Positions 5,888 to 37,822 of a DNA stretch of 64,000 nucleotides are shown here, piece by piece. The notes under the pieces were generated by a model. It was not told the origin of the DNA. It saw only the letters and a program-made list of their open reading frames with translations, and made no database searches. This DNA is from Dehalococcoidia bacterium (GTDB taxonomy: Bacteria > Chloroflexota > Dehalococcoidia > Bin125): NCBI GenBank assembly GCA_963663235.2, contig CAXXNO010000006.1, positions 64,001-128,000 on the forward strand, in the 5' to 3' direction. Both the position numbers and the translations under genes were made by a program. Numbering within the stretch: the first letter of the stretch is position 1; the number at the start of each line of letters is the position of its first letter.

Positions 5888-6541
5888 CTAGGCCGCTGGC
5901 CAGTACATGAACCCCGTCTGCACGACGGTGCGGTCAAAGACGTCGAAAGAACTCGCTTCCCAGTAAATGTCGAAGCCCGAAGCGCCGTCCCCCTCGATCT
6001 CGCCACCCGAGTACAACCATGGAATGGGGCGGTGCTCGTCAGCTGGGCCAAGAGCGTCCCAAGTTCCTGCAATGAACGGCGAGCCAAGACCCGCAGAGGT
6101 GGGGAGAGGCGGCGCCGGCGGGATGCCGGGTGCGCGATCGCGCACCGGGGCTATCCATACTCGAATCTTTATCGACCGCGCAGGCCCCGGGCCGACGTTC
6201 CGAAGAGCCGCCCGAACCCGGTACAGGCCGGCGAAGGAGAAGTCTTCCTCCGTGCGCTGTTGCGCTGGCTGGAGATCGAGCCGAACGACAGGCATGAGGC
6301 TGTCCAGCCGCGTCCGCCGCTGCTCGCGCACGCTCAGCCAGGCAAACCACCCCGCCAGCCCAGCAAGGAGAGCGAGGGCGTAGGCGGACCAGGCGCTGAG
6401 GGCATCGAGGGAACGATCGCTGATCCCTGCCGGATCTTCCCAGAAGGACAGCAGACTCAAGACCAGCAGTGTCACGCCAGTGCCCACGCCGATAGGCGCG
6501 ATAACGATGAACAAGCGGTGATTGACGAGTCGGCCCAACAC
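5888..6541 (-). CDS. Hypothetical membrane-anchored protein
   Basis: Two N-terminal TM helices, then a 'LRNVGPGPA' beta domain. TACACT lies 6 nt before the GTG (leaderless layout). Confidence 0.65.
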   Translation of the reverse strand: MLGRLVNHRLFIVIAPIGVGTGVTLLVLSLLSFWEDPAGISDRSLDALSAWSAYALALLAGLAGWFAWLSVREQRRTRLDSLMPVVRLDLQPAQQRTEEDFSFAGLYRVRAALRNVGPGPARSIKIRVWIAPVRDRAPGIPPAPPLPTSAGLGSPFIAGTWDALGPADEHRPIPWLYSGGEIEGDGASGFDIYWEASSFDVFDRTVVQTGFMYWPAA

Positions 6542-6600
6542 GAGCGAAGTGTACGACTACTCCGCCGATGGATCCGTCGTAGGGATCGAGTTCATCAACG

Positions 6601-7404
6601 TCAGCGGCGTTGGTGACCTCGCGACTTCCGTCGTCCGCGCCGCCGTTTAGGCGAAGGCGGCTGAAGTGGAGCGCGCTCATCAAAGAAGCCAGAGAAGAGT
6701 GGGATTACTTCATCACGGACGAAATGATGCATTGTGAGCAGACCACTGGGGCTGATGACCTCGTTCTCGACCGCGATACCAACGAGGGCCCCGATGCTTA
6801 CTGTGTATTCCTCATCCGCTGGGGCGAGATCGAGCCTAAGTATATCGCCGTCTTTGACGTACCCCGCGAGCCAGACTTCACTCCCGGTGCTGCTCCGAAT
6901 GTGGACACGACCGGCGACATAGTTGAATGTCCGGTGCTTGTCTCGATTGGCGAGTTGATTGATCAGCCAGAGATAGTAGAGCTCAGACCAGTCCGTGCGG
7001 TGGTACGGCTGAAGGCACTCGATCAGATCCCATGCCTCGACTGGGACGCTCTGCAACGCATCCGGCGCTCGCTCGGGGTAACGCTTCTCATTGAGGACGA
7101 TAGGAAACGCGGTCCGAATGCTGATCCGATCTTCGCCGCAGACGAGCAGCGCCAACTGATAGGCCAAGTGGTCGAGGCTAGCCCTGATATTAGTGACAGC
7201 GTCGCCGAACACTGATCCGACGTGGTCGGGCGCGGGGCGCACCTGAAACCGGAGGAGGAAGTAGCCCGGTCTCTGTGGGTCGCGTTCTTGCGAGGCGCCA
7301 TATGGCTCAGTCCCCTTCCAGGCGTCGTACTCCCGTTCGAAGTCACGGATATGTTCCTCAGCCCGCTGGAGTTTGAGGAGTGGGCCGTCCAGTGGATGAG
7401 GCAT
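6601..7404 (-). CDS. Hypothetical protein (possible HEPN-like fold)
   Basis: Lower GC than flanks, GAGGA SD. Motifs LKLQRAEEHI, GDAVTNIRASLDHLA, FPI, QPY and LANRDKHR. Confidence 0.7.
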   Translation of the reverse strand: MPHPLDGPLLKLQRAEEHIRDFEREYDAWKGTEPYGASQERDPQRPGYFLLRFQVRPAPDHVGSVFGDAVTNIRASLDHLAYQLALLVCGEDRISIRTAFPIVLNEKRYPERAPDALQSVPVEAWDLIECLQPYHRTDWSELYYLWLINQLANRDKHRTFNYVAGRVHIRSSTGSEVWLAGYVKDGDILRLDLAPADEEYTVSIGALVGIAVENEVISPSGLLTMHHFVRDEVIPLFSGFFDERAPLQPPSPKRRRGRRKSRGHQRR

Positions 7405-31207: not shown

Positions 31208-31708
31208 CTACTCCAAGTCGCCTCGCAGCGCCTTGAGCGCCTGCCAGCGGCGGTCGTCGCCGGCCTCGCGTTCCTCGCCGCGCTGGGGGGCAGCGCTGGC
31301 GACGCCCGGACAGGCCGGACCGCAGAGCGGCCGCATTGGTCGCGTCATCTCGCCATATTGGCGCACAGCTTCCGTGAGGTCGAGGATGCCTCCGACAATC
31401 GGGAAACCTTCGCGCTCCTCGGGCACCAGCACTCGCTCCCGTGTGAGCGGCTGATACTCGGGCCAGAACTCCTCGCTGAAAGCGACCTCCAGGCTCACGG
31501 GAACGGGCCGCAGGCAATCGCTGCAGCGCTCTGTGATGGTGGCTCGAAGCCGGGTGGTGGCGAGGATCGAGCCGTCGGTTCGGAGGAGGTCCACGTCGCC
31601 GCTGAGAGTTGTCGCGTGACCGTAGAAGTCGAAGGGCTCCGCAGCCAGCGCGTAGCGGCGACGGCTCCCAATCGGCTGCTGTAACAGGGTGGAGACGTTG
31701 AAGTGCAT
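31208..31708 (-). CDS. yceD: YceD/DUF177 family protein
   Basis: CSDCL, LDLTEAVRQ, PLC, DRRWQALKAL, upstream of rpmF. Confidence 0.88.
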   Translation of the reverse strand: MHFNVSTLLQQPIGSRRRYALAAEPFDFYGHATTLSGDVDLLRTDGSILATTRLRATITERCSDCLRPVPVSLEVAFSEEFWPEYQPLTRERVLVPEEREGFPIVGGILDLTEAVRQYGEMTRPMRPLCGPACPGVASAAPQRGEEREAGDDRRWQALKALRGDLE

Positions 31709-31782
31709 GCTGCTCCCGCCCGGATTGAGCGCTTGCGGGCGGCGGGTTTCACCGTATCAGAGGGGCACGGAGGGGTCGGATC

Positions 31783-31811
31783 TTGCGCCAACGAACATCG
31801 GTTCGTATGCT
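31783..31811 (+). promoter_or_regulatory. Sigma70 promoter with perfect LexA (Cheo) box in the spacer
   Basis: TTGCGC (31783) then 17 nt then TATGCT (31806). The spacer contains CGAACATCGGTTCG (31792-31805). Confidence 0.75.
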
Positions 31812-31843
31812 CCAGATACCCTAATCGAAGCGGACAAAACGGC

Positions 31844-32542
31844 GTGATCGACGTCGGTGACCTGTCTTACCTCCAAGAGATCGACCTCCAGCTGGACGTC
31901 GTGCAGGATGCACTTCGCGAAGTGGAGGCGCGCTTGGGCGGGAATTCGCTGCTGCCCGCCCTTGAGGCGGAGGCCCAGGCCCAGGCGCAGTTGTTGGACG
32001 CGGCTCGTCAGGAGCGCATAAGCGTGGAGACAACGGGCGACGACGCCCGGAGCAAGATTGAGGCCGAGGACGGGAAGCTTTACGGCGGCACCATCAAGGA
32101 TCCCCGAGAACTCCGAAACCTGCAGGAGGAGATCTTCGCGCTGCGCCGGACGCTCAAGGCGCAGGAGGACGACCTGCTGACGCGTATCGAAGAGGAGGAG
32201 GGGGCGGATGTGGCCGGAGCGCACGTGCAAGGGCTGGTGAAGGCTACGACCGTCGCCTGGGAGGCGGAGCAGCAGGAGTTAGAGAAGCGACGCGCGGAGC
32301 TGACCACCGAGGCAGCGGGCGTCCAGGCTGAGATCAAGACGCACCGCGCCGAGATCCAGCCGGAGGGGCTCGCTGCCTATGACAGCCAGCGCCGCATCAT
32401 GCCGGTCGCCATCGCGCGCGTGCAAGGAGGCGCATGCAGCGGCTGTCGGCTGACGCTGCCGATCTACGCCATCAACCGAGCGCGACGCGGGCAGGCTGCG
32501 GTGCGGTGTCCGTCCTGCCAGCGGATCCTGTACGTGGCGTAG
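31844..32542 (+). CDS. Coiled-coil + C4 zinc-ribbon protein (DUF164/HP0958/CT398-like)
   Basis: LQEIDLQLD, long coiled coil, KLYGG, CSGC...CPSCQRILY. Confidence 0.88.
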   Translation: MIDVGDLSYLQEIDLQLDVVQDALREVEARLGGNSLLPALEAEAQAQAQLLDAARQERISVETTGDDARSKIEAEDGKLYGGTIKDPRELRNLQEEIFALRRTLKAQEDDLLTRIEEEEGADVAGAHVQGLVKATTVAWEAEQQELEKRRAELTTEAAGVQAEIKTHRAEIQPEGLAAYDSQRRIMPVAIARVQGGACSGCRLTLPIYAINRARRGQAAVRCPSCQRILYVA

Positions 32543-32549
32543 AGTCACG

Positions 32550-33965
32550 ATGCACGCCGTCGGCTACTTCAGCGAGAGCCGCCCGAGCGAGCAGGCCTGC
32601 TCGCTCTCCGACCAAAACGATGCCTTCCTGGACACTTGCAGGCAACAGGGCTATGAGCCTACGGCCTCCTTTCTCGATACCGCTCTCGACGGCGACCGCC
32701 CCGGCTTTGAGCAACTCCTCAACTACCTCGGCCGGCCCGACCGCGGCTTCATCGTGGTGGTCGTTATGGCGTTCGCGCACTTGGGGGCGGCACAGATCGA
32801 AGCGGCGCGCACGTACTACCAACTGATCGCGCGCGGCGCCAAAGTGGTCAGCATCAAGGAAGGGCCGCTGGATGAGGCGCGATTGCTGGAACTCTGGGCG
32901 GCAGCGAGCCCCACGGACGCGATGCGGGAGCGGGTCCGCAATGCCATGCGCCGGCGCGCGGTATCCGGCCAGGTCCTGGGACGTCCCGCGTACGGCTATC
33001 GCGTGGGGCCGGACCGACGCCTGGAGTTGGTGGAAGAGGAAGCGGTGGTGGTGCGCCATATTTTCTCGCTGTACTTGCAGGAGGGGCTGGGAGTCCGGCG
33101 TATCGCCAAGCGACTCAACGAGGATGGCTTCCAGACCCGTCGCCGGGCCAACTGGAGCATGGTCACCATCCGCGACATCCTGCGCAATCGGGTGTACCTG
33201 GGCACCTACGCCCGCTTCGGCGTTCGAGTGCCCGGCAGTCACCCGGCGATCGTGAGCGAGGAGGATTTCCGCAAGGTCCAACAGGGGTTGGAACGCCGTC
33301 GCACGGTGGCGGCGCCCGCCACGCGCAGCAATTATCTCCTTTCGGGGCTGGCGCACTGCGATGCCTGCGGGAATCGAATGATCGGCGTTTCACGCCGCCA
33401 GCAATGGACCCGTGGCAACGGCGAGACCGTCAAGCAGACCTACCGCTATTACCAGTGCGAATCGAGAACGAATCAGTCGATGTGCGATTACCACACGCGT
33501 CGCGCCGACGAGCTGGAGGCGGAGGTGGTGGCGCACGTGACGGGGGCGGAGCCGGGCGCACGGCGGCCGTCGGTCATCAGCGCAGGCAACGCGGACGCCG
33601 TGGCGGCGGAGACGGCAACGGCGACGGCGCGCGTCCGTGGACGTCTGCGGCTTCTCGATCGACGCCTCTCCGAGCAACTCACGCGGGCGGCGGCCGGCCA
33701 GCTCTCGCGCGATCGGCTCCGCGCGATCGCCGACTCCCTGGTCGCCGAGCACCAGGATGCGGAGGAGGAGTTGCGCGGGCACCACGACCGGGCGTCGCTG
33801 CAGGTGTCGGCTATCGCCCGCCGCCAGCATCAAGAGCGGCAGGTGGAGCGCATCCGCGGCGAATGGTCTCGTCTCTCCTTTGCCGCGCGGCAGGCGATGG
33901 TGCGCGATCTCGTTGAGAAGGTCGTCGTCAGCGATGACGAGGTCACGACGGTGCTGCGCCCATGA
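32550..33965 (+). CDS. Large serine recombinase-like protein with degenerate catalytic domain
   Basis: Resolvase-like N-terminus (SLSDQ, DRPGF), recombinase domain (PAYGY, IAKRLN, ILRNRVYLG, HPAIV), zinc ribbon (LLSGLAHCDACG, YYQC), coiled coil. Confidence 0.9.
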   Translation: MHAVGYFSESRPSEQACSLSDQNDAFLDTCRQQGYEPTASFLDTALDGDRPGFEQLLNYLGRPDRGFIVVVVMAFAHLGAAQIEAARTYYQLIARGAKVVSIKEGPLDEARLLELWAAASPTDAMRERVRNAMRRRAVSGQVLGRPAYGYRVGPDRRLELVEEEAVVVRHIFSLYLQEGLGVRRIAKRLNEDGFQTRRRANWSMVTIRDILRNRVYLGTYARFGVRVPGSHPAIVSEEDFRKVQQGLERRRTVAAPATRSNYLLSGLAHCDACGNRMIGVSRRQQWTRGNGETVKQTYRYYQCESRTNQSMCDYHTRRADELEAEVVAHVTGAEPGARRPSVISAGNADAVAAETATATARVRGRLRLLDRRLSEQLTRAAAGQLSRDRLRAIADSLVAEHQDAEEELRGHHDRASLQVSAIARRQHQERQVERIRGEWSRLSFAARQAMVRDLVEKVVVSDDEVTTVLRP

Positions 33966-33975
33966 CCGCCCTCTC

Positions 33976-34389
33976 GTGCGGCTAGTCGCTTACGCGGACG
34001 GCGCCTCGCGCGGCAACCCGGGGCCGGCCGCCTATGGTGGTGCTCTCTACAGCGAAGCGGGGGTGGAAGTGCGTGCCGTGGCGCGGGCGATCGGTCGCGG
34101 GACCAACAACGATGCGGAGTATCAGGCCGCCATCGCGGTGCTCGAAGCGGCGCTGGAGATGCAGGCCACGGAGGTCGAGTTGCGCTTGGACTCGGAGTTG
34201 GTGGTGCGGCAAATCACCGGGATCTACCGGGTCCGCAGCGAACGGTTGCGCGGCTACTACGATCGGGTCTTGGCGCTCATAGAGCAACTGGAGCGTTTCC
34301 ACGTGCATCACATCCCGCGCGAGCAGAACCGCCGCGCCGACGCACTGGCGAACGGGGCGCTGGATGGCCGGCCCGCGAGCGCACCGTAG
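33976..34389 (+). CDS. rnhA: Ribonuclease HI
   Basis: YADGASRGNPG, TNNDAEY, DSELVVRQ, HIPREQNRRADALAN. Start at GTG 33976 or ATG 33934. Confidence 0.92.
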   Translation: MRLVAYADGASRGNPGPAAYGGALYSEAGVEVRAVARAIGRGTNNDAEYQAAIAVLEAALEMQATEVELRLDSELVVRQITGIYRVRSERLRGYYDRVLALIEQLERFHVHHIPREQNRRADALANGALDGRPASAP

Positions 34390-34402
34390 CGGAGCCGTAG
34401 TA
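34325..34402 (+). repeat. 78-bp direct repeat, copy 1 (3' end of rnhA)
   Basis: Matches 35799-35876 at 77/78 nt. Confidence 0.95.
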
Positions 34403-35798
34403 CGCAGCATTCCATATCGATGAGAATCGACGGCTGACAGGCCGTGCTGTTTACATCTGGACACACTGGTAACTAGGGTTTCGTCTGTCGTCCAATGAAA
34501 GGGCGTGCCAACGACTCCGTTGGCAATTGGTTGGCAACGACGTGCCTACGTCCGCGCCGGCAACGCGTCTTACCGCCGCTGGCTTCTCCGACGCGCGTGA
34601 ATGATCGCCTCTGCCTTCGTCTCTGTGGGCAGCAATCCATCGGTGCTGCAGCGGGGCTCGCGGAGTTCGTCTTCGCTGGCGTCTCCTCGCTTCGGCATGG
34701 CCGACGCTACGGTATACTCGCGCTCCCTCAGTTCTGACAGAGTCCTCTGAAGGAGACTCTCATGTCCGCCAGCGTATCTGACATCGAACTGCACGGCCCA
34801 GGCGGCGGCGCACGCCGGGGGAACAAGATCGAAGCCAAGGAGTTGTCGGCGACCTTCACGGTGACCGTGGATACCGATGGTTGCTACGCGATCTTCGTCT
34901 CCCTCTGGGAAGATGACGACAACTTGCTGTGGTTCTTGAATCCAGACGAGAAGGGCCTGGGATACGAGAAACGCAATCGAATGCCACTGCCTAACGGCGG
35001 GCGAGGCCCAGGAGTTCGAGATTGGGGCGACCGCGTCGGAGGACCCCGCCGAACCCCCGGCGCCGGACCCGGACTCCAGCGTCATCCCTCTGGCGCCGAT
35101 GAAGGGGAATTGGCCCAAGTCGGATGCGGGAGGGGAAATCGAGTTGCGCCTCGAAGTAGAGGTCAAGCTCTGCACGCCGAATTGTGGCAAGGAGTGTGAT
35201 GACTACAACTACTTTACGGATAGTTTCGGCGATCCAGTCGGCAAGGGAAGCTCGGAGCTGGTGGACATCCCTCTTCCCGGCGGCAAGGAGCCGCATGAAA
35301 TCATGAAAGAGGCCGTCAAGGCGGCTGCCCCATCGGTCATCGGCGAGTTGATGAAGTCTACCCGTTCGGAAGAAGCGACTGAGGCCGTGTCTGCAGATCT
35401 CGCGTGGAGAGAAGGCGTGTCGAAGCAATTGAGGGCCCTCCAGCGAAGCGTCCGGGCGACGGAGGAGCGCATGATCTCGGAGCGCGCGAGAGTGAAGCGC
35501 GCTCGCTCCGAACGTCGTAGGCGGAGGCCCCGTGAACGAAGCTAAGTCCGACGAGAGAGCTGCGTAGCCCACGTCGGCCAGGACCAGCGTCTAGATCCGC
35601 GCTGACAATGTCCGCAGAGTCGTAGGCCGTGGGGTGTTGCGCTACGACGAGGGGAAGAGGAAAGGGGGGTCGGAGGCCGGCTGGGGGCGCTAGGGCTTCT
35701 GGCTTCGACGTGACGGGTGGCATGGGGCTCTCCACGCTGGACCCGTTGCTGGGCCGTGTGCAGGTGCGATTGGTGTGCATCCAGACGTGCCACCCTGT
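34403..35798. mobile_element. 1.4-kb islet bounded by 78-bp direct repeats
   Basis: Flanked by the duplicated rnhA 3' end, atypical composition, no mobility gene inside. Confidence 0.65.
34762..35545 (+). pseudogene. Frameshifted hypothetical gene (islet cargo)
   Basis: AAGGAG SD and ATG 34762. Protein-like sequence continues in the +1 frame from ~34960 (DTRNAIECHCLTAGEAQEF...) to the stop at 35545. Confidence 0.55.
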
Positions 35799-35876
35799 AG
35801 AACCGCCGCGCCGACGCCCTGGCGAACGGGGCGCTGGATGGCCGGCCCGCGAGCGCACCGTAGCGGAGCCGTAGTA
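35799..35876 (+). repeat. 78-bp direct repeat, copy 2 (overlaps rnpB promoter)
   Basis: Matches 34325-34402 at 77/78 nt and runs into TAGGAT (35875-35880). Confidence 0.95.
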
Positions 35877-35886
35877 GGATCAAGAC

Positions 35887-36258
35887 GGGCCAGGTGGCCG
35901 GGTGGCTGCGGTCCTTCCGGCAGTGGAAGGGCTGAGGAAAGTCCGAGCTCCACCGAGACGGGGCGCTGGGTAACACCCAGGAGGGGCGACCCTACGGAAA
36001 GCGCCACAGAAACATACCGCCCTTCCCGAAGGGGAAGGGCAAGGGTGAAATGGTGCGGTAAGAGCGCACCAGCGGCCGGGCGACCGGCCGGCTGGGCAAG
36101 CCCCGCCCGGAGCAAGACCACGTAGGAGGGCTATGGGAGTCTCGGCCCGCCCTCGGGTAGGTCGCTTGAGGCGGCGGGTAACTGTCGTCCTAGATAGATG
36201 GCCACCCCCTGTCGCTACGGCGGCGGGGACAGAACTCGGCTTACAGGCCACCTGGCCC
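35887..36258 (+). ncRNA. rnpB: RNase P RNA (class A)
   Basis: GAGGAAAGTCC, AGCGCCACAGAAA, GGTGCGGTAAGAGCGCACC, AGAACTCGGCTTA. P1 helix GGGCCAGGTGGCC/GGCCACCTGGCCC. Confidence 0.97.
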
Positions 36259-36280
36259 ACTTCTCTTTCAGGCGAAGGCC

Positions 36281-37822
36281 GTGCCTAGGGCTGCCGTGGG
36301 CCGTGCGTTGCCCGATTTGCTGAATGCGACGCGGGTGCTGGCGGTGCATGGGCGGCCGCCGGCCCAGCCCGCGTCCCAGCTGAGCCAGGACTCGCGCGAG
36401 ATTGCTCCGGGGGCCTGCTTCGTGGCGGTGCCCGGCTTCCACGTCGACGGGCACGCGTACCTGGAGGAGGCGCTGGCGGCGGGAGCGGCGGCGGTGGTGG
36501 TGCAGGCCGATCGCCGGGCGTTGTGGGAGCCGCTCCTCGCGCGACCGCAGATCACAGTGGTCGAGGTTCCCGATACCCGCGCGGCGCTGGCGGACCTGGC
36601 CGCGGCCTTCCATGGATTTCCCGCTCGCTCGCTCACCGTGGTCGGCGTCACGGGCACCGACGGCAAGAGCACCACCAGTTATCTCATCTCCTCGATTCTC
36701 GAGGCGGCCGGAGGCCGCACCGGAATGATTAGCGGCGTGCAGTTCAAGGTCGGTGGCGAGTGGCGGATGAACGACCTCACCCAGACCAGTCCAGAGGCAC
36801 CGCTGGTGCAGGCGCTCCTGGCAGAGATGGTCGAGGCTCGTGTGACGCATGCCATCATCGAGTCGACGTCGCACGGGCTGGCGCTCCACCGGCTGGACCA
36901 CTGCGAGTACGACGTTGCGGTGTTCACCGGTCTGAGCGACGACCATTTGGATTTCCACGAAACGCGTGAGGCGTATATCGCGGCCAAGGCGGGTCTCTTT
37001 GCCGCCCTCGATCAGGCGTGCGACAAGGGCGTGCCGAAGCGCGGCGTCGTCAATGCGGACGATCCCCATGCCGGCGCGATGCAGGCGGCCACCCGAGCGT
37101 CGCTCATTCGCGTTGCTCTTGACGCGCCGGCGGTGGATGTCACCGCCACCGATCTCATGGAGGGGGCGGACGGCACGGAGTTTCTCTTGGTGACCGACGT
37201 GGGAGACGCGCGTGTCGACCTGCCGCTGCCGGGTCGGTTCAACGTGCGCAACGCCCTCGCTGCCGCGGGCGCCGGCCGTGCGCTGGGTGTTGCCCCCGAG
37301 GTGATTGCGCGCGGCCTCTCGAGCGTCGGCGGCGTGCCGGGGCGGATGGAGCGGATCGACGGCGGGCAGCCCTTTACCGTCGTCGTCGATGCGGCCGCAA
37401 CGACTGACGCGTTCCGTGTCGTGCTCGGCTCGATCAAGCCGCTCGTGACCGGGCGCCTGATCGCGGTTTTCGGCTGTGCCGGCGAGCGCGATCCCGGCCG
37501 CCGGCCGGGGATGGGCCGCGCCGCGGCGGAATACGCCGATTACACGGTGATCACGAGCGAGAATCCGCGCTCGGAAGAGCCGGGCGCCATCGTGCGGGAG
37601 ATCGCCGTGGCGATGGAGGGCGCCGGGCGCCGGACAGGCGTCGATTTTGAGGAGGAGCCCGACCGCCGGTCGGCCATCGCGCGGGCTCTGGAGTTGGCCG
37701 AAGCGAACGATTACGTCCTGATCGCCGGCAAGGGCGCCGAGCAGTCGCTCATCGTGGGCGACAGCGTGCAGCCCTGGGACGACCGCACCGTCACGCGCGA
37801 GTTGCTCGCCCAGCGTGGGTGA
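36281..37822 (+). CDS. murE: MurE-family amino acid ligase
   Basis: DSREI, VDGH, VTGTDGKSTT, STSHGL, DHLDFH, VPGRME, FGCAGERD, IAGKG. Confidence 0.88.
   Translation: MPRAAVGRALPDLLNATRVLAVHGRPPAQPASQLSQDSREIAPGACFVAVPGFHVDGHAYLEEALAAGAAAVVVQADRRALWEPLLARPQITVVEVPDTRAALADLAAAFHGFPARSLTVVGVTGTDGKSTTSYLISSILEAAGGRTGMISGVQFKVGGEWRMNDLTQTSPEAPLVQALLAEMVEARVTHAIIESTSHGLALHRLDHCEYDVAVFTGLSDDHLDFHETREAYIAAKAGLFAALDQACDKGVPKRGVVNADDPHAGAMQAATRASLIRVALDAPAVDVTATDLMEGADGTEFLLVTDVGDARVDLPLPGRFNVRNALAAAGAGRALGVAPEVIARGLSSVGGVPGRMERIDGGQPFTVVVDAAATTDAFRVVLGSIKPLVTGRLIAVFGCAGERDPGRRPGMGRAAAEYADYTVITSENPRSEEPGAIVREIAVAMEGAGRRTGVDFEEEPDRRSAIARALELAEANDYVLIAGKGAEQSLIVGDSVQPWDDRTVTRELLAQRG

What the first reader, a model, noticed from the sequence alone, without database searches (positions are those of the whole stretch)
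31783..34389. Candidate new system: SOS-controlled operon of zinc-ribbon protein + recombinase-like protein + RNase HI
Seen: a perfect CGAAC-ATCG-GTTCG palindrome inside the 17-nt spacer of a TTGCGC/TATGCT promoter. Three tightly packed genes follow (gaps 7 and 10 nt), then rnpB. Known: GAAC-N4-GTTC is the LexA box of Firmicutes, Actinobacteria and Dehalococcoides, and zinc-ribbon/RNase H/rnpB linkage occurs in Actinobacteria without a recombinase gene. The recombinase gene has host-like composition and no phage or ICE genes nearby. Inference: a domesticated damage-inducible module in which a DNA-binding or synapsing protein works with RNase HI, for example on R-loops or stalled forks.
Basis: partly seen in the sequence, partly recalled or inferred. 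Interest (0 to 1): 0.8.

Follow-up and report, generated by a model that had tools for sequence, protein, structure and literature searches.

The report
Dead integrase in a core operon
A gene that looks like a phage integrase has lost its cutting residues and become a stably inherited core gene of many Dehalococcoidia, always placed between a zinc-ribbon protein gene and an RNase H gene, and in this organism and a few close relatives the operon carries a DNA-damage (LexA) switch.

Summary
CGAACATCGGTTCG (31792-31805) fills the 17-nt spacer of TTGCGC/TATGCT. Three genes follow with gaps of 7 and 10 nt. rnpB lies 1.5 kb further on, behind a foreign 1.4-kb insert flanked by 78-nt direct repeats.

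GAAC-N4-GTTC also sits upstream of lexA, recA and imuB-dnaE2 in this genome, so it is a credible LexA box. The full box is kept in only 4 of 10 close-clade loci and in none of the distant ones at that position. SOS control is therefore lineage-specific.

The main finding is the recombinase gene. It is a full-length large-serine-recombinase homologue whose catalytic Ser and Arg positions are not conserved. It was found in 318 species genomes, only in the window's own class (record titles read mostly Dehalococcoidia or Chloroflexota). It diverges as slowly as MurE and in step with its neighbours. It follows the CT398-type zinc-ribbon gene in 80 of 80 loci (median gap 3 nt). An RNase H gene follows it in 74 of 78 evaluable loci: RNase HI in 62, RNase HIII in the same slot in 12. 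Genomes of the class without it have zinc-ribbon-RNase HI-rnpB directly adjacent.

Best reading: a domesticated, non-catalytic DNA-binding integrase relic working in an RNA:DNA-hybrid/transcription module. The mechanism is inferred, not shown.

The parts
31783..31811 (+). Promoter-like element TTGCGC-17 nt-TATGCT with the LexA-type box CGAACATCGGTTCG (31792-31805) in the spacer, ending directly at the -10 hexamer (the GAAC-N4-GTTC core ends 1 nt before it)
   Evidence: The imuB-dnaE2 promoter of the same genome has the same layout, TTGACA-spacer with box-TATCTT. The 14-mer is identical in L024 and G245/L119, and the core box GAAC-N4-GTTC is exact in L026.
31812..31846 (+). 5' leader holding CCTAATCGAAGCGGA, conserved in the close clade; includes the ribosome-binding site
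   Evidence: Upstream sequences compared by eye.
31847..32542 (+). Zinc-ribbon coiled-coil protein, 231 aa, CT398/CdsZ/FlgZ/MSMEG_4306 family
   Evidence: Pfam Zn_ribbon_9 37.5 bits (cut-off 29.1) and CT398_CC 30.7 bits (cut-off 27). The four Zn cysteines are invariant in 27 sequences.
32550..33965 (+). Large-serine-recombinase homologue, 471 aa, with a degenerate catalytic domain (1-~145), recombinase domain (162-250), zinc beta-ribbon (263-330) and a long coiled coil (348-441)
33976..34389 (+). RNase HI, 137 aa, RVT_3 / Rv2228c-N-terminal type; the only type-1 RNase H found in this assembly
34325..34402 (+). Left copy of a 78-nt direct repeat (3' end of the RNase HI gene plus 13 nt)
   Evidence: 99% identical to the right copy.
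34403..35798 (.). Foreign 1,396-nt insert: single copy, GC 62% against 67% for the window. It holds two overlapping ORFs that look like one frameshifted gene, with no family match
   Evidence: Absent from G245 and G333, where rnpB follows RNase HI closely.
35799..35876 (+). Right copy of the 78-nt direct repeat, ending 13 nt before rnpB
35890..36259 (+). rnpB, RNase P RNA class A
   Evidence: Rfam RF00010, 298.6 bits, E 1e-96.
31208..31708 (-). yceD, divergent upstream neighbour; a conserved flank of the cluster
   Evidence: Pfam YceD; found upstream on the opposite strand in most of the 80 loci.
36281..37822 (+). murE, conserved downstream flank
   Evidence: Pfam Mur ligase domains.

Best explanation
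SHOWN. The region is a conserved core cluster of one large part of the window's class (record titles: mostly Dehalococcoidia or Chloroflexota). The order is yceD(-) | zinc-ribbon protein -> recombinase-like protein -> RNase H -> rnpB -> murE.

The middle gene descends from a phage-type large serine integrase. It keeps the whole fold, but the nucleophile serine and the catalytic Arg/Asp positions are no longer conserved. It is inherited vertically and is under purifying selection as strong as that on MurE. It was inserted into an older zinc-ribbon-RNase H-rnpB cluster that still exists without it in other genomes of the class.

INFERRED. It no longer recombines DNA. It serves as a DNA-binding or scaffolding subunit next to the zinc-ribbon protein, whose family is reported to associate with RNA polymerase, and next to an RNase H activity. 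The slot after it holds either RNase HI or its analogue RNase HIII, so the module most likely deals with RNA:DNA hybrids formed during transcription or replication.

In this organism and three relatives the promoter has a full LexA box over the spacer and -10 edge, so the operon is probably repressed by LexA and induced by DNA damage. That control is a recent, lineage-specific addition, not part of the module.
For: Box and LexA:
- GAAC-N4-GTTC lies upstream of lexA, recA, two imuB-dnaE2 copies and a radical-SAM gene in the same genome.
- It also lies upstream of lexA and recA in three same-family genomes.
- The genome holds 43 boxes against 15 and 14 for two control patterns. Box followed by [GT]TA occurs 7 times against 0.
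- The 14-mer is identical in the window, L024 and G245 while the flanking bases differ.

Dead enzyme:
- The position of the nucleophile serine varies across members (by my reading of the alignments S, T, M, R, V, P, G, C, Y or N).
- The positions aligned to gamma-delta resolvase D67/R68/R71 are A/H/A in the window and not conserved in 24 + 27 aligned members.
- Pfam Resolvase matches 27 of 27 N-termini, and in the window protein only from profile position 11.

Fold:
- The C-terminal part aligns to A118 integrase (5e-18) and SPbeta integrase.
- It matches phrog_95 integrase at 2.9e-72.
- The AF2 model (pLDDT 80.5) matches full-length SPbeta, Bxb1 and PhiC31 integrases at E down to 2.7e-21.

Domestication:
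- 318 species genomes encode a relative, and 80 loci were fetched.
- The zinc-ribbon gene is immediately upstream in 80 of 80, with a median gap of 3 nt (n=78).
- REC pairwise distances correlate with those of MurE (rho 0.86, n=32), ZnR (0.90, n=74) and RNase HI (0.83, n=59). Mean divergence is 0.48, the same as MurE.
- Own family 25 of 25 genomes, and 250 of 401 in the class at E<=1e-20.
- At E<=1e-50 there are 7 of 301 matches in a phylum sample, all in the same class.

Older cluster: ZnR-RNase HI-rnpB or ZnR-rnpB lie adjacent in genomes of the class that lack REC.

RNase H slot: RNase HI follows in 62 loci. RNase HIII follows in 12 (full-length match to 2d0a, 3e-36). Together that is 74 of 78 evaluable loci.

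Zinc-ribbon family and RNA polymerase (passages read):
- PMC7092591: MSMEG_4306 co-purifies with RNAP beta and is DNA-associated.
- bioRxiv 10.64898/2026.07.15.738315: predicted beta' binding.
- PMC3372290: flgZ synteny with rnhA and rnpB.
Against: - No direct evidence of expression, co-transcription, LexA binding, DNA binding by REC or any protein contact was obtainable.
- The right half of the box (GTTCG) and the -10 are conserved in all 10 close-clade loci, including those without a full box. Part of the palindrome may therefore be promoter sequence rather than operator.
- G138/L025 and G333 use the same LexA motif at lexA and recA but lack the box here.
- Genome-wide enrichment of the 12-mer is modest, and GAAC-N5-GTTC is even more frequent (58).
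- Two loci (L025, L100) have REC followed directly by rnpB with no RNase H, and two others (L090, L101) have other genes.
- In family f6 a truncated REC-like gene persists away from the cluster, in genomes where no zinc-ribbon gene was found. REC is therefore not strictly dependent on either partner.
- No conserved candidate binding site for REC was found in the flanking intergenic regions.
Confidence: 0.6

Rival explanations
1. REC is a stand-alone sequence-specific DNA-binding protein (transcription factor or nucleoid protein) derived from an integrase. Its position between the zinc-ribbon and RNase H genes is only a frozen accident of where the ancestral element integrated.
For: The DNA-binding domains are the best conserved parts, with invariant residues clustered in 183-224 and 263-318. 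A truncated REC-like gene survives in f6 genomes outside the cluster and without a zinc-ribbon gene. L025 and L100 lack an RNase H gene after REC.
Against: 80 of 80 loci show adjacency to the zinc-ribbon gene, with a median gap of 3 nt, over divergence equal to that of MurE. The downstream slot was refilled by an analogous RNase H, which argues for selection on the arrangement. No conserved operator-like site was found near the cluster.
Confidence: 0.2
2. The palindrome is not a working LexA operator. The GTTCG half is promoter sequence, the GAAC half arose by drift, and the operon is constitutive housekeeping.
For: The right half and -10 are conserved in all 10 close-clade loci, but the left half is exact in only 4. 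Same-family genomes with LexA boxes at lexA and recA lack it here. The operon holds the only type-1 RNase H found in the assembly and sits among housekeeping genes. 15 of 100 window shuffles give at least one 14-mer match somewhere.
Against: The 14-mer, including its ATCG spacer, is identical in three genomes whose REC proteins are only about 61% identical and whose flanking bases differ. The register of the box relative to the -10 is the same as at imuB-dnaE2. Only about 2.75 such 14-mers are expected in the whole genome.
Confidence: 0.3
3. REC is an active integrase of a mobile element or prophage remnant.
For: Best PHROG match is integrase. The locus has received foreign DNA: a 1.4-kb insert with 78-nt repeats.
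Against: Catalytic residues are not conserved. There are no other mobile genes within about 13 kb. The position between the same neighbours is fixed in 80 of 80 loci. Divergence tracks MurE. The 78-nt repeats flank a segment that does not contain REC.
Confidence: 0.02
4. REC is an attachment-site guard. A dead integrase occupies an attB-like site near rnpB and blocks integration by related phages.
For: It keeps the DNA-binding domains of integrases. The RNase H-rnpB junction is an integration site in this genome.
Against: The 78-nt identity segment is longer than the short crossover core that I recall for serine integrases, which points to a different class of integrase (recalled knowledge). 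No conserved site was found in the RNase H-rnpB spacers of 48 loci. Very slow, MurE-like evolution is unusual for defence genes. No PADLOC match.
Confidence: 0.05

Closest known systems
Large serine recombinases / phage serine integrases (A118 Int, SPbeta SprA, Bxb1, PhiC31)
   Same: Full domain order: N-terminal resolvase-type domain, recombinase domain, zinc beta-ribbon and an inserted coiled coil. Profile and fold matches.
   Different: The nucleophile Ser and the catalytic Arg/Asp positions are not conserved. There is no mobile element and no att duplication around the gene. It is single-copy in most genomes, vertically inherited and sits in a housekeeping operon. The zinc cysteines are lost in one subgroup.
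CT398 (CdsZ) / HP0958 (FlgZ) / MSMEG_4306 / Rv2229c zinc-ribbon coiled-coil proteins and their synteny with rnhA and rnpB
   Same: The first gene is a member by Pfam. Linkage of this family to RNase H and the RNase P RNA gene in diverse bacteria is described in PMC3372290 (passages read). The RNase HI here resembles the RNase H domain of Rv2228c (3hst, 2.5e-27).
   Different: No recombinase-like gene is described in those clusters. Here one is wedged between the two genes in hundreds of species.
LexA (Cheo-type) SOS regulon of Gram-positive bacteria and Dehalococcoides
   Same: The GAAC-N4-GTTC palindrome overlaps the promoter and is also present at lexA, recA and imuB-dnaE2 in this genome. 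That Dehalococcoides LexA recognises this motif is recalled from the literature and was not retrieved here (one search found no such paper in the library).
   Different: The target operon (zinc-ribbon, dead integrase, RNase HI) is not a classical SOS member as far as I recall. The box is confined to a small sub-lineage.
Host-recruited serine recombinases such as XisF and SpoIVCA
   Same: Large serine recombinases taken over for a host function. XisF is the best, though weak, NCBIfam match (71.8 bits against a cut-off of 375).
   Different: By recalled knowledge those enzymes remain catalytically active and excise a DNA element. This family lacks the catalytic residues and has no element to excise.

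Membership tests
Large serine recombinase (LSR) | N-terminal resolvase-type catalytic domain fold | tested here: met
   Pfam Resolvase matches 27 of 27 N-termini (best 8.9e-17; window 8.2e-10). Foldseek matches full-length integrases, gamma-delta resolvase and the TP901-1 catalytic domain.
Large serine recombinase (LSR) | Catalytic residues: nucleophile Ser plus the conserved Arg and Asp residues (gamma-delta R8, S10, D67, R68, R71) | tested here: not met
   The Ser10 position is variable. The positions aligned to D67/R68/R71 are A/H/A in the window and not conserved across 24 and 27 aligned members. R8 is S in the window and R in most others.
Large serine recombinase (LSR) | Recombinase domain, zinc beta-ribbon and coiled coil | tested here: met
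   PF07508 83.1 bits and PF13408 46.3 bits. Aligned over residues 151-471 to A118 integrase 4kis. Long helical hairpin 348-441 in the model. The zinc cysteines are replaced in one subgroup.
Large serine recombinase (LSR) | Residence in a mobile element with att sites; patchy distribution | tested here: not met
   Fixed between the same neighbours in 80 of 80 loci. Housekeeping surroundings. Distances track MurE.
LexA regulon member | Operator matching the motif found at lexA and recA of the same genome | tested here: met
   Exact GAAC-N4-GTTC at lexA, recA and imuB-dnaE2 and at 31793-31804.
LexA regulon member | Operator conserved upstream of orthologues | tested here: inconclusive
   Of 10 close-clade loci, 4 are exact, 3 have one mismatch and 3 lack it. 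Of the other loci checked, only L040 has an exact box, at -185.
LexA regulon member | LexA binding and damage induction | not testable with these tools
   Read data could not be obtained.
CT398/FlgZ zinc-ribbon family | Coiled-coil hairpin plus C-terminal CxxC...CxxC ribbon | tested here: met
   Both Pfam models score above their cut-offs. C197, C200, C221 and C224 are invariant in 27 sequences.
RNase HI (type 1) | RNase H fold with the acidic catalytic residues | tested here: met
   PF13456 75.1 bits and PF00075 45.6 bits. Aligned to 4e19 and 3hst, with the ADG, AEY, DS and RAD motifs identical in query and solved enzymes. Which residues are catalytic is recalled knowledge.
Anti-phage defence system | Match to a known defence protein family | tested here: not met
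   No PADLOC match for any of five proteins.

The most novel reading that the evidence does not exclude
A phage serine integrase was captured early in the radiation of one large part of the Dehalococcoidia. It lost catalysis and became a core genome-maintenance factor. Using its att-binding domains and coiled coil, it positions an RNA-polymerase-bound zinc-ribbon protein and an RNase H (HI or HIII) on DNA to remove R-loops at transcription or replication conflicts. In one sub-lineage the module has been wired into the SOS response. This would be the first exapted, non-catalytic serine integrase with a housekeeping role.
Probability: 0.3. Interest if true: 0.8.

Novelty: new variant of a known kind. 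Interest (0 to 1): 0.62.

Why it matters
Serine integrases are known as mobile-element enzymes and as genome-engineering tools. A catalytically dead one that is conserved as tightly as MurE across hundreds of species, always coupled to an RNA-polymerase-associated zinc-ribbon protein and an RNase H activity, would be a clear case of exaptation of an integrase into core cell biology.

It also gives a handle on the unexplained CT398/FlgZ/Rv2229c-RNase H-rnpB linkage seen in many phyla. The in-place swap of RNase HI for RNase HIII shows that RNA:DNA-hybrid cleavage is what the cluster needs.

The LexA box offers a simple experimental entry point in the few lineages that carry it.

Tried and rejected
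- Complex prediction of REC with the zinc-ribbon protein, each given as an alignment, returned 'no answer' (score 0.00, controls not run). It says nothing either way.
- A search for a conserved REC binding site by 9-mer sharing was run on 65 yceD-ZnR spacers and 48 RNase H-rnpB spacers. It found only GGATTATAGAC-type words. I read these as the -10 region of a minus-strand yceD promoter.
- The sigma-70 consensus scan found no promoter in 31500-36400. It found 4 terminator-like sites against 2.3 +/- 1.3 in shuffles, none between the three genes.
- The insert ORFs gave no match in Pfam, PHROGs, NCBIfam or PADLOC.
- Literature searches for a catalytically inactive or domesticated serine recombinase of this kind, or for this cluster in Dehalococcoidia, returned nothing relevant. 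One search did not retrieve the paper I recall on the Dehalococcoides LexA box. Supplementary files were not consulted.
- The idea that REC belongs to the 78-nt-repeat insert was rejected, because REC lies outside the repeats and is present in relatives that lack the insert.
Full report
1. THE OBSERVATION

The sequence is as described. TTGCGC lies at 31783-31788, followed by a 17-nt spacer and TATGCT at 31806-31811. The perfect palindrome CGAACATCGGTTCG at 31792-31805 is the only match in the window. Shuffles gave a mean of 0.16 matches, and 15 of 100 shuffles had at least one.

Three ORFs follow: 31847-32542, 32550-33965 and 33976-34389, with gaps of 7 and 10 nt. Pfam names them as follows:
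- Zn_ribbon_9 plus the CT398 coiled-coil hairpin.
- Recombinase plus the recombinase zinc beta-ribbon.
- RVT_3/RNase_H.

Two corrections are needed:
- By my count the promoter matches only 7 of 12 consensus positions, and a 9-of-12 scan does not pick it up.
- rnpB lies at 35890-36259 (Rfam 298.6 bits), 1.5 kb downstream rather than directly after the operon.

2. IS THE PALINDROME A LexA BOX?

The assembly is 2.75 Mb in 14 contigs, GC 67-70% per contig, 91.9% complete. It holds 43 copies of GAAC-N4-GTTC. Controls give 15 for the reversed pattern, 14 for swapped halves, 15 for N3 and 26 for N6. N5 gives 58, which I cannot explain. Base composition predicts 23.5.

After fetching 16 promoter-like sites and scanning their flanking ORFs, boxes lie upstream of these genes:
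- lexA (Peptidase_S24 plus LexA_DNA_bind).
- recA (424 bits).
- Two copies of an imuB-type Y-family polymerase gene followed by a PHP-domain polymerase gene.
- A radical-SAM gene.

The imuB promoter reads TTGACA-spacer with box-TATCTT. The box ends one base before the -10, the same register as here. Three genomes of the same family also have exact boxes upstream of lexA and recA. Two genomes of other families do not. The motif is therefore this lineage's LexA operator by the usual comparative criterion. Binding itself is not shown.

3. IS THE BOX CONSERVED AT THIS OPERON?

Ten loci form a close clade: the window, L024-L030, G245/L119 and G333/L120. They share the -35, the GTTCG-TA(T/A/G)(A/G)CT -10 region and the leader CCTAATCGAAGCGGA(G).
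- The full box is exact in four: the window, L024, G245 and L026. In the first three the 14-mer is identical while the flanking bases differ.
- Three have one mismatch in the left half: L028, L029 and L030.
- Three lack it: G333 (which I read as two mismatches), L025 and L027.

L025 appears to be the same genome as G138, which has exact boxes at lexA and recA. In the remaining loci checked (75, including seven of the close clade) only L040 has an exact box, at -185. One-mismatch hits are scattered.

SOS control is therefore plausible for this organism and three relatives. It is not a property of the gene cluster.

4. THE RECOMBINASE-LIKE GENE

Size of the family. The protein search returned 844 proteins at E<=0.001 among 8,000 scored candidates. 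The best 120 listed are 401-523 aa, 48-65% identical to the query apart from the window's own 100% entry, and cover 85-100% of it. Where a source names them, the name is only 'recombinase family protein' or 'site-specific DNA recombinase', and the organism names that appear are all Dehalococcoidia.

Fold:
- The C-terminal two-thirds align to A118 integrase (4kis, 4.9e-18) and to SPbeta integrase.
- The best PHROG is integrase (2.9e-72).
- An AlphaFold2 model built from 24 sequences (pLDDT 80.5) matches full-length SPbeta, Bxb1 and PhiC31 integrases at E 2.7e-21 to 1e-16. It also matches gamma-delta resolvase and the TP901-1 catalytic domain.
- The N-terminal domain is a resolvase domain by Pfam in 27 of 27 members. 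In the window protein the match starts only at profile position 11.

Catalytic residues. In the alignments and in the profile alignments to TnpX, TP901-1 integrase and gamma-delta resolvase:
- The nucleophile-serine position varies; by my reading of the alignments it is S, T, M, R, V, P, G, C, Y or N.
- It is followed by a loop of variable length.
- The positions facing D67, R68 and R71 are A, H and A in the window and are not conserved.
- None of the invariant residues of the domain (G5, Q22, F26, C30, F41, Q55, F67, L78, W116) is a plausible replacement nucleophile in that pocket.

The recombinase domain, in contrast, holds a dense block of invariant residues (183-224). One subgroup has also lost the zinc cysteines. 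The family is a non-catalytic descendant of an integrase.

5. INHERITANCE

A scan of one genome per species found 318 encoding genomes, and 80 loci were fetched. Their record titles read Dehalococcoidia, Chloroflexota/Chloroflexi, Tepidiformales/Tepidiformaceae, Ca. Amarobacillus, 'uncultured Chloroflexia' or 'uncultured Anaerolineaceae'.

Distribution:
- Class sample: 250 of 401 genomes match at E<=1e-20 (the tally includes the unpublished genome G244). The own family scores 25 of 25, and several families score 0.
- The listed E-values look two-tiered: presumed orthologues below about 1e-40, and weak hits near 1e-20 to 1e-29 that are presumably mobile integrases.
- Phylum sample of genomes at least 90% complete: matches at E<=1e-50 occur in 7 of 301, all of the same class.

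Rate of change. Pairwise divergence of REC correlates with that of MurE (Spearman 0.86, n=32 loci), the zinc-ribbon protein (0.90, n=74), RNase HI (0.83, n=59) and YceD (0.72, n=64). MurE against YceD gives 0.84. Mean divergence of REC is 0.48, equal to MurE and lower than the zinc-ribbon protein at 0.61. Related genomes are not independent, so these are descriptive figures, not tests.

The window's surroundings from 19 to 49 kb are accA/D, ftsK, RNase J, UDG, tatCA, nusB, fabD, murE, birA, his and pur genes.

6. CONTEXT

In all 80 loci the zinc-ribbon gene lies immediately upstream. The stop-to-start gap has a median of 3 nt (n=78; three loci exceed 40 nt).

Downstream:
- RNase HI follows in 62 loci.
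- In 12 loci the same slot holds a 315-aa gene that matches Geobacillus RNase HIII over its full length (2d0a, 3.2e-36). These are L041, L046, L053, L056, L058, L059, L066, L072, L076, L079, L092 and L093.
- Two contigs end too early (L063, L097).
- L025 and L100 go straight to rnpB.
- L090 and L101 have other genes, which I did not identify.

An RNase H gene therefore follows in 74 of 78 evaluable loci. By recalled knowledge, RNase HI and HIII are analogues that rarely coexist. An in-place swap indicates selection for that activity in this operon.

Genomes of the class without REC show zinc-ribbon-RNase HI-rnpB adjacent (G014) or zinc-ribbon-rnpB adjacent (G021, G013). REC was therefore inserted into an older cluster. 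That older linkage is in print for other phyla: flgZ with rnhA and the RNase P RNA gene (PMC3372290, passages read).

The RNase HI here is the only type-1 RNase H found in this assembly. It resembles the RNase H domain of Rv2228c (3hst, 2.5e-27).

7. HOW IT MOST LIKELY WORKS

Shown: the anatomy, the loss of conservation at the catalytic positions, the inheritance and the linkage.

From the literature (passages read):
- MSMEG_4306, a member of the zinc-ribbon family, co-purifies with RNA polymerase and is DNA-associated after cross-linking (PMC7092591).
- A 2026 preprint predicts that ML1638 and CT398 bind the beta' jaw and shelf (10.64898/2026.07.15.738315).

Inferred: REC contributes DNA binding or scaffolding through its recombinase, ribbon and coiled-coil domains. 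It acts beside an RNA-polymerase-associated protein and an RNase H, on RNA:DNA hybrids. The LexA box adds damage induction in a few lineages.

Evidence that weakens a strict three-part machine:
- Family f6 keeps an N-terminally truncated REC-like gene (419 aa) elsewhere in the genome.
- Three f6 genomes (100%, 96% and 94% complete) show no zinc-ribbon gene, either by protein search or by Pfam family search.
- Two loci lack the RNase H gene after REC.

The truncation of the N-terminal domain in the very lineage where the zinc-ribbon gene is missing hints that this domain serves the zinc-ribbon partner. It is a single lineage, so this is only a hint.

8. THE INSERT

A 78-nt direct repeat (one mismatch) lies at 34325-34402 and 35799-35876. 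It brackets 1,396 nt of single-copy, lower-GC DNA: 62% against 67% for the window. Relatives G245 and G333 have rnpB about 50-110 nt after RNase HI with no insert.

The left copy completes the RNase HI gene and the right copy ends 13 nt before rnpB. This is an integration with duplication of the target. The insert carries no integrase. Its two overlapping ORFs read like one frameshifted gene with no family match. It does not contain REC and is unrelated to REC's presence.

9. COMPARISON AND NOVELTY

- The first gene is a member of the CT398/FlgZ family.
- The third gene is an RNase HI.
- The box fits the Gram-positive-type LexA motif.
- The second gene has the fold of a large serine recombinase. 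It fails two defining features that were tested: catalytic residues and residence in a mobile element. I therefore file it as LSR-derived, not as a recombinase.

Searches of the paper library found no description of a non-catalytic serine integrase as a core gene, nor of this cluster in Dehalococcoidia. About 1.7 million PMC articles are outside the searched set, and supplements were closed.

10. VERDICT

Its 'domesticated' inference is strongly supported. 'SOS-controlled' holds at best for a small sub-lineage, and 'recombinase' should read 'dead integrase relic'.

The finding is a new variant built from known kinds. It is of moderate to high interest mainly for the exaptation and for the RNase HI/HIII swap. 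The mechanism is open.

Noticed in passing
window 34325-35876: A 1,396-nt low-GC single-copy insert sits between the RNase HI gene and rnpB. It is flanked by 78-nt direct repeats (one mismatch) that duplicate the 3' end of the RNase HI gene. It has no integrase. ORFs 34762-35199 and 35099-35545 look like one frameshifted gene with no family match.
   Followed up: partly
L041, L046, L053, L056, L058, L059, L066, L072, L076, L079, L092, L093 (about 6410-7375 in most): A full-length RNase HIII gene (315 aa) occupies the slot that RNase HI holds in 62 other loci, directly after the recombinase-like gene and before rnpB.
   Followed up: yes
L121 2883-4142 (G005, family f6): A 419-aa recombinase-like homologue lacks roughly the first 40 residues of the N-terminal domain. 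It lies away from rnpB, RNase H and murE. No zinc-ribbon (PF02591) gene was found in three f6 genomes.
   Followed up: partly
G000 C9:142155 and C12:57060 (L016, L017): Two copies of the LexA-box promoter plus imuB-type polymerase plus PHP-domain polymerase region have identical printed flanks and the same ORF layout. This is either a true duplication or an assembly duplicate.
   Followed up: no
L120 reverse complement, about 425-480: A run of GTGGTGC(T/C)(T/C)GCG units (about five copies by eye) lies immediately upstream of the -35 of the zinc-ribbon operon in G333, the close relative whose LexA half-site is degenerate.
   Followed up: no
window 31821-31836 and the same place in L024-L030, L119, L120: The 5' leader CCTAATCGAAGCGGA(G) is conserved across the close clade beyond what a ribosome-binding site needs.
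   Followed up: no
yceD-ZnR spacers of many distant loci (e.g. L064, L069, L074, L083): A conserved AAGTCTATAATCC...TTGTCCA element reads on the minus strand as a TGGACA-17-TATAGA-type promoter, presumably for yceD-rpmF.
   Followed up: partly
whole genome G000: GAAC-N5-GTTC (58 copies) is more frequent than the LexA-type N4 spacing (43) and than N3 (15) or N6 (26). Unexplained.
   Followed up: no
A1 columns for window residues 270-312: One subgroup of the recombinase-like family (e.g. P0003, P0012, P0015, P0026) has replaced three of the four zinc-ribbon cysteines, so zinc binding is probably lost there.
   Followed up: no
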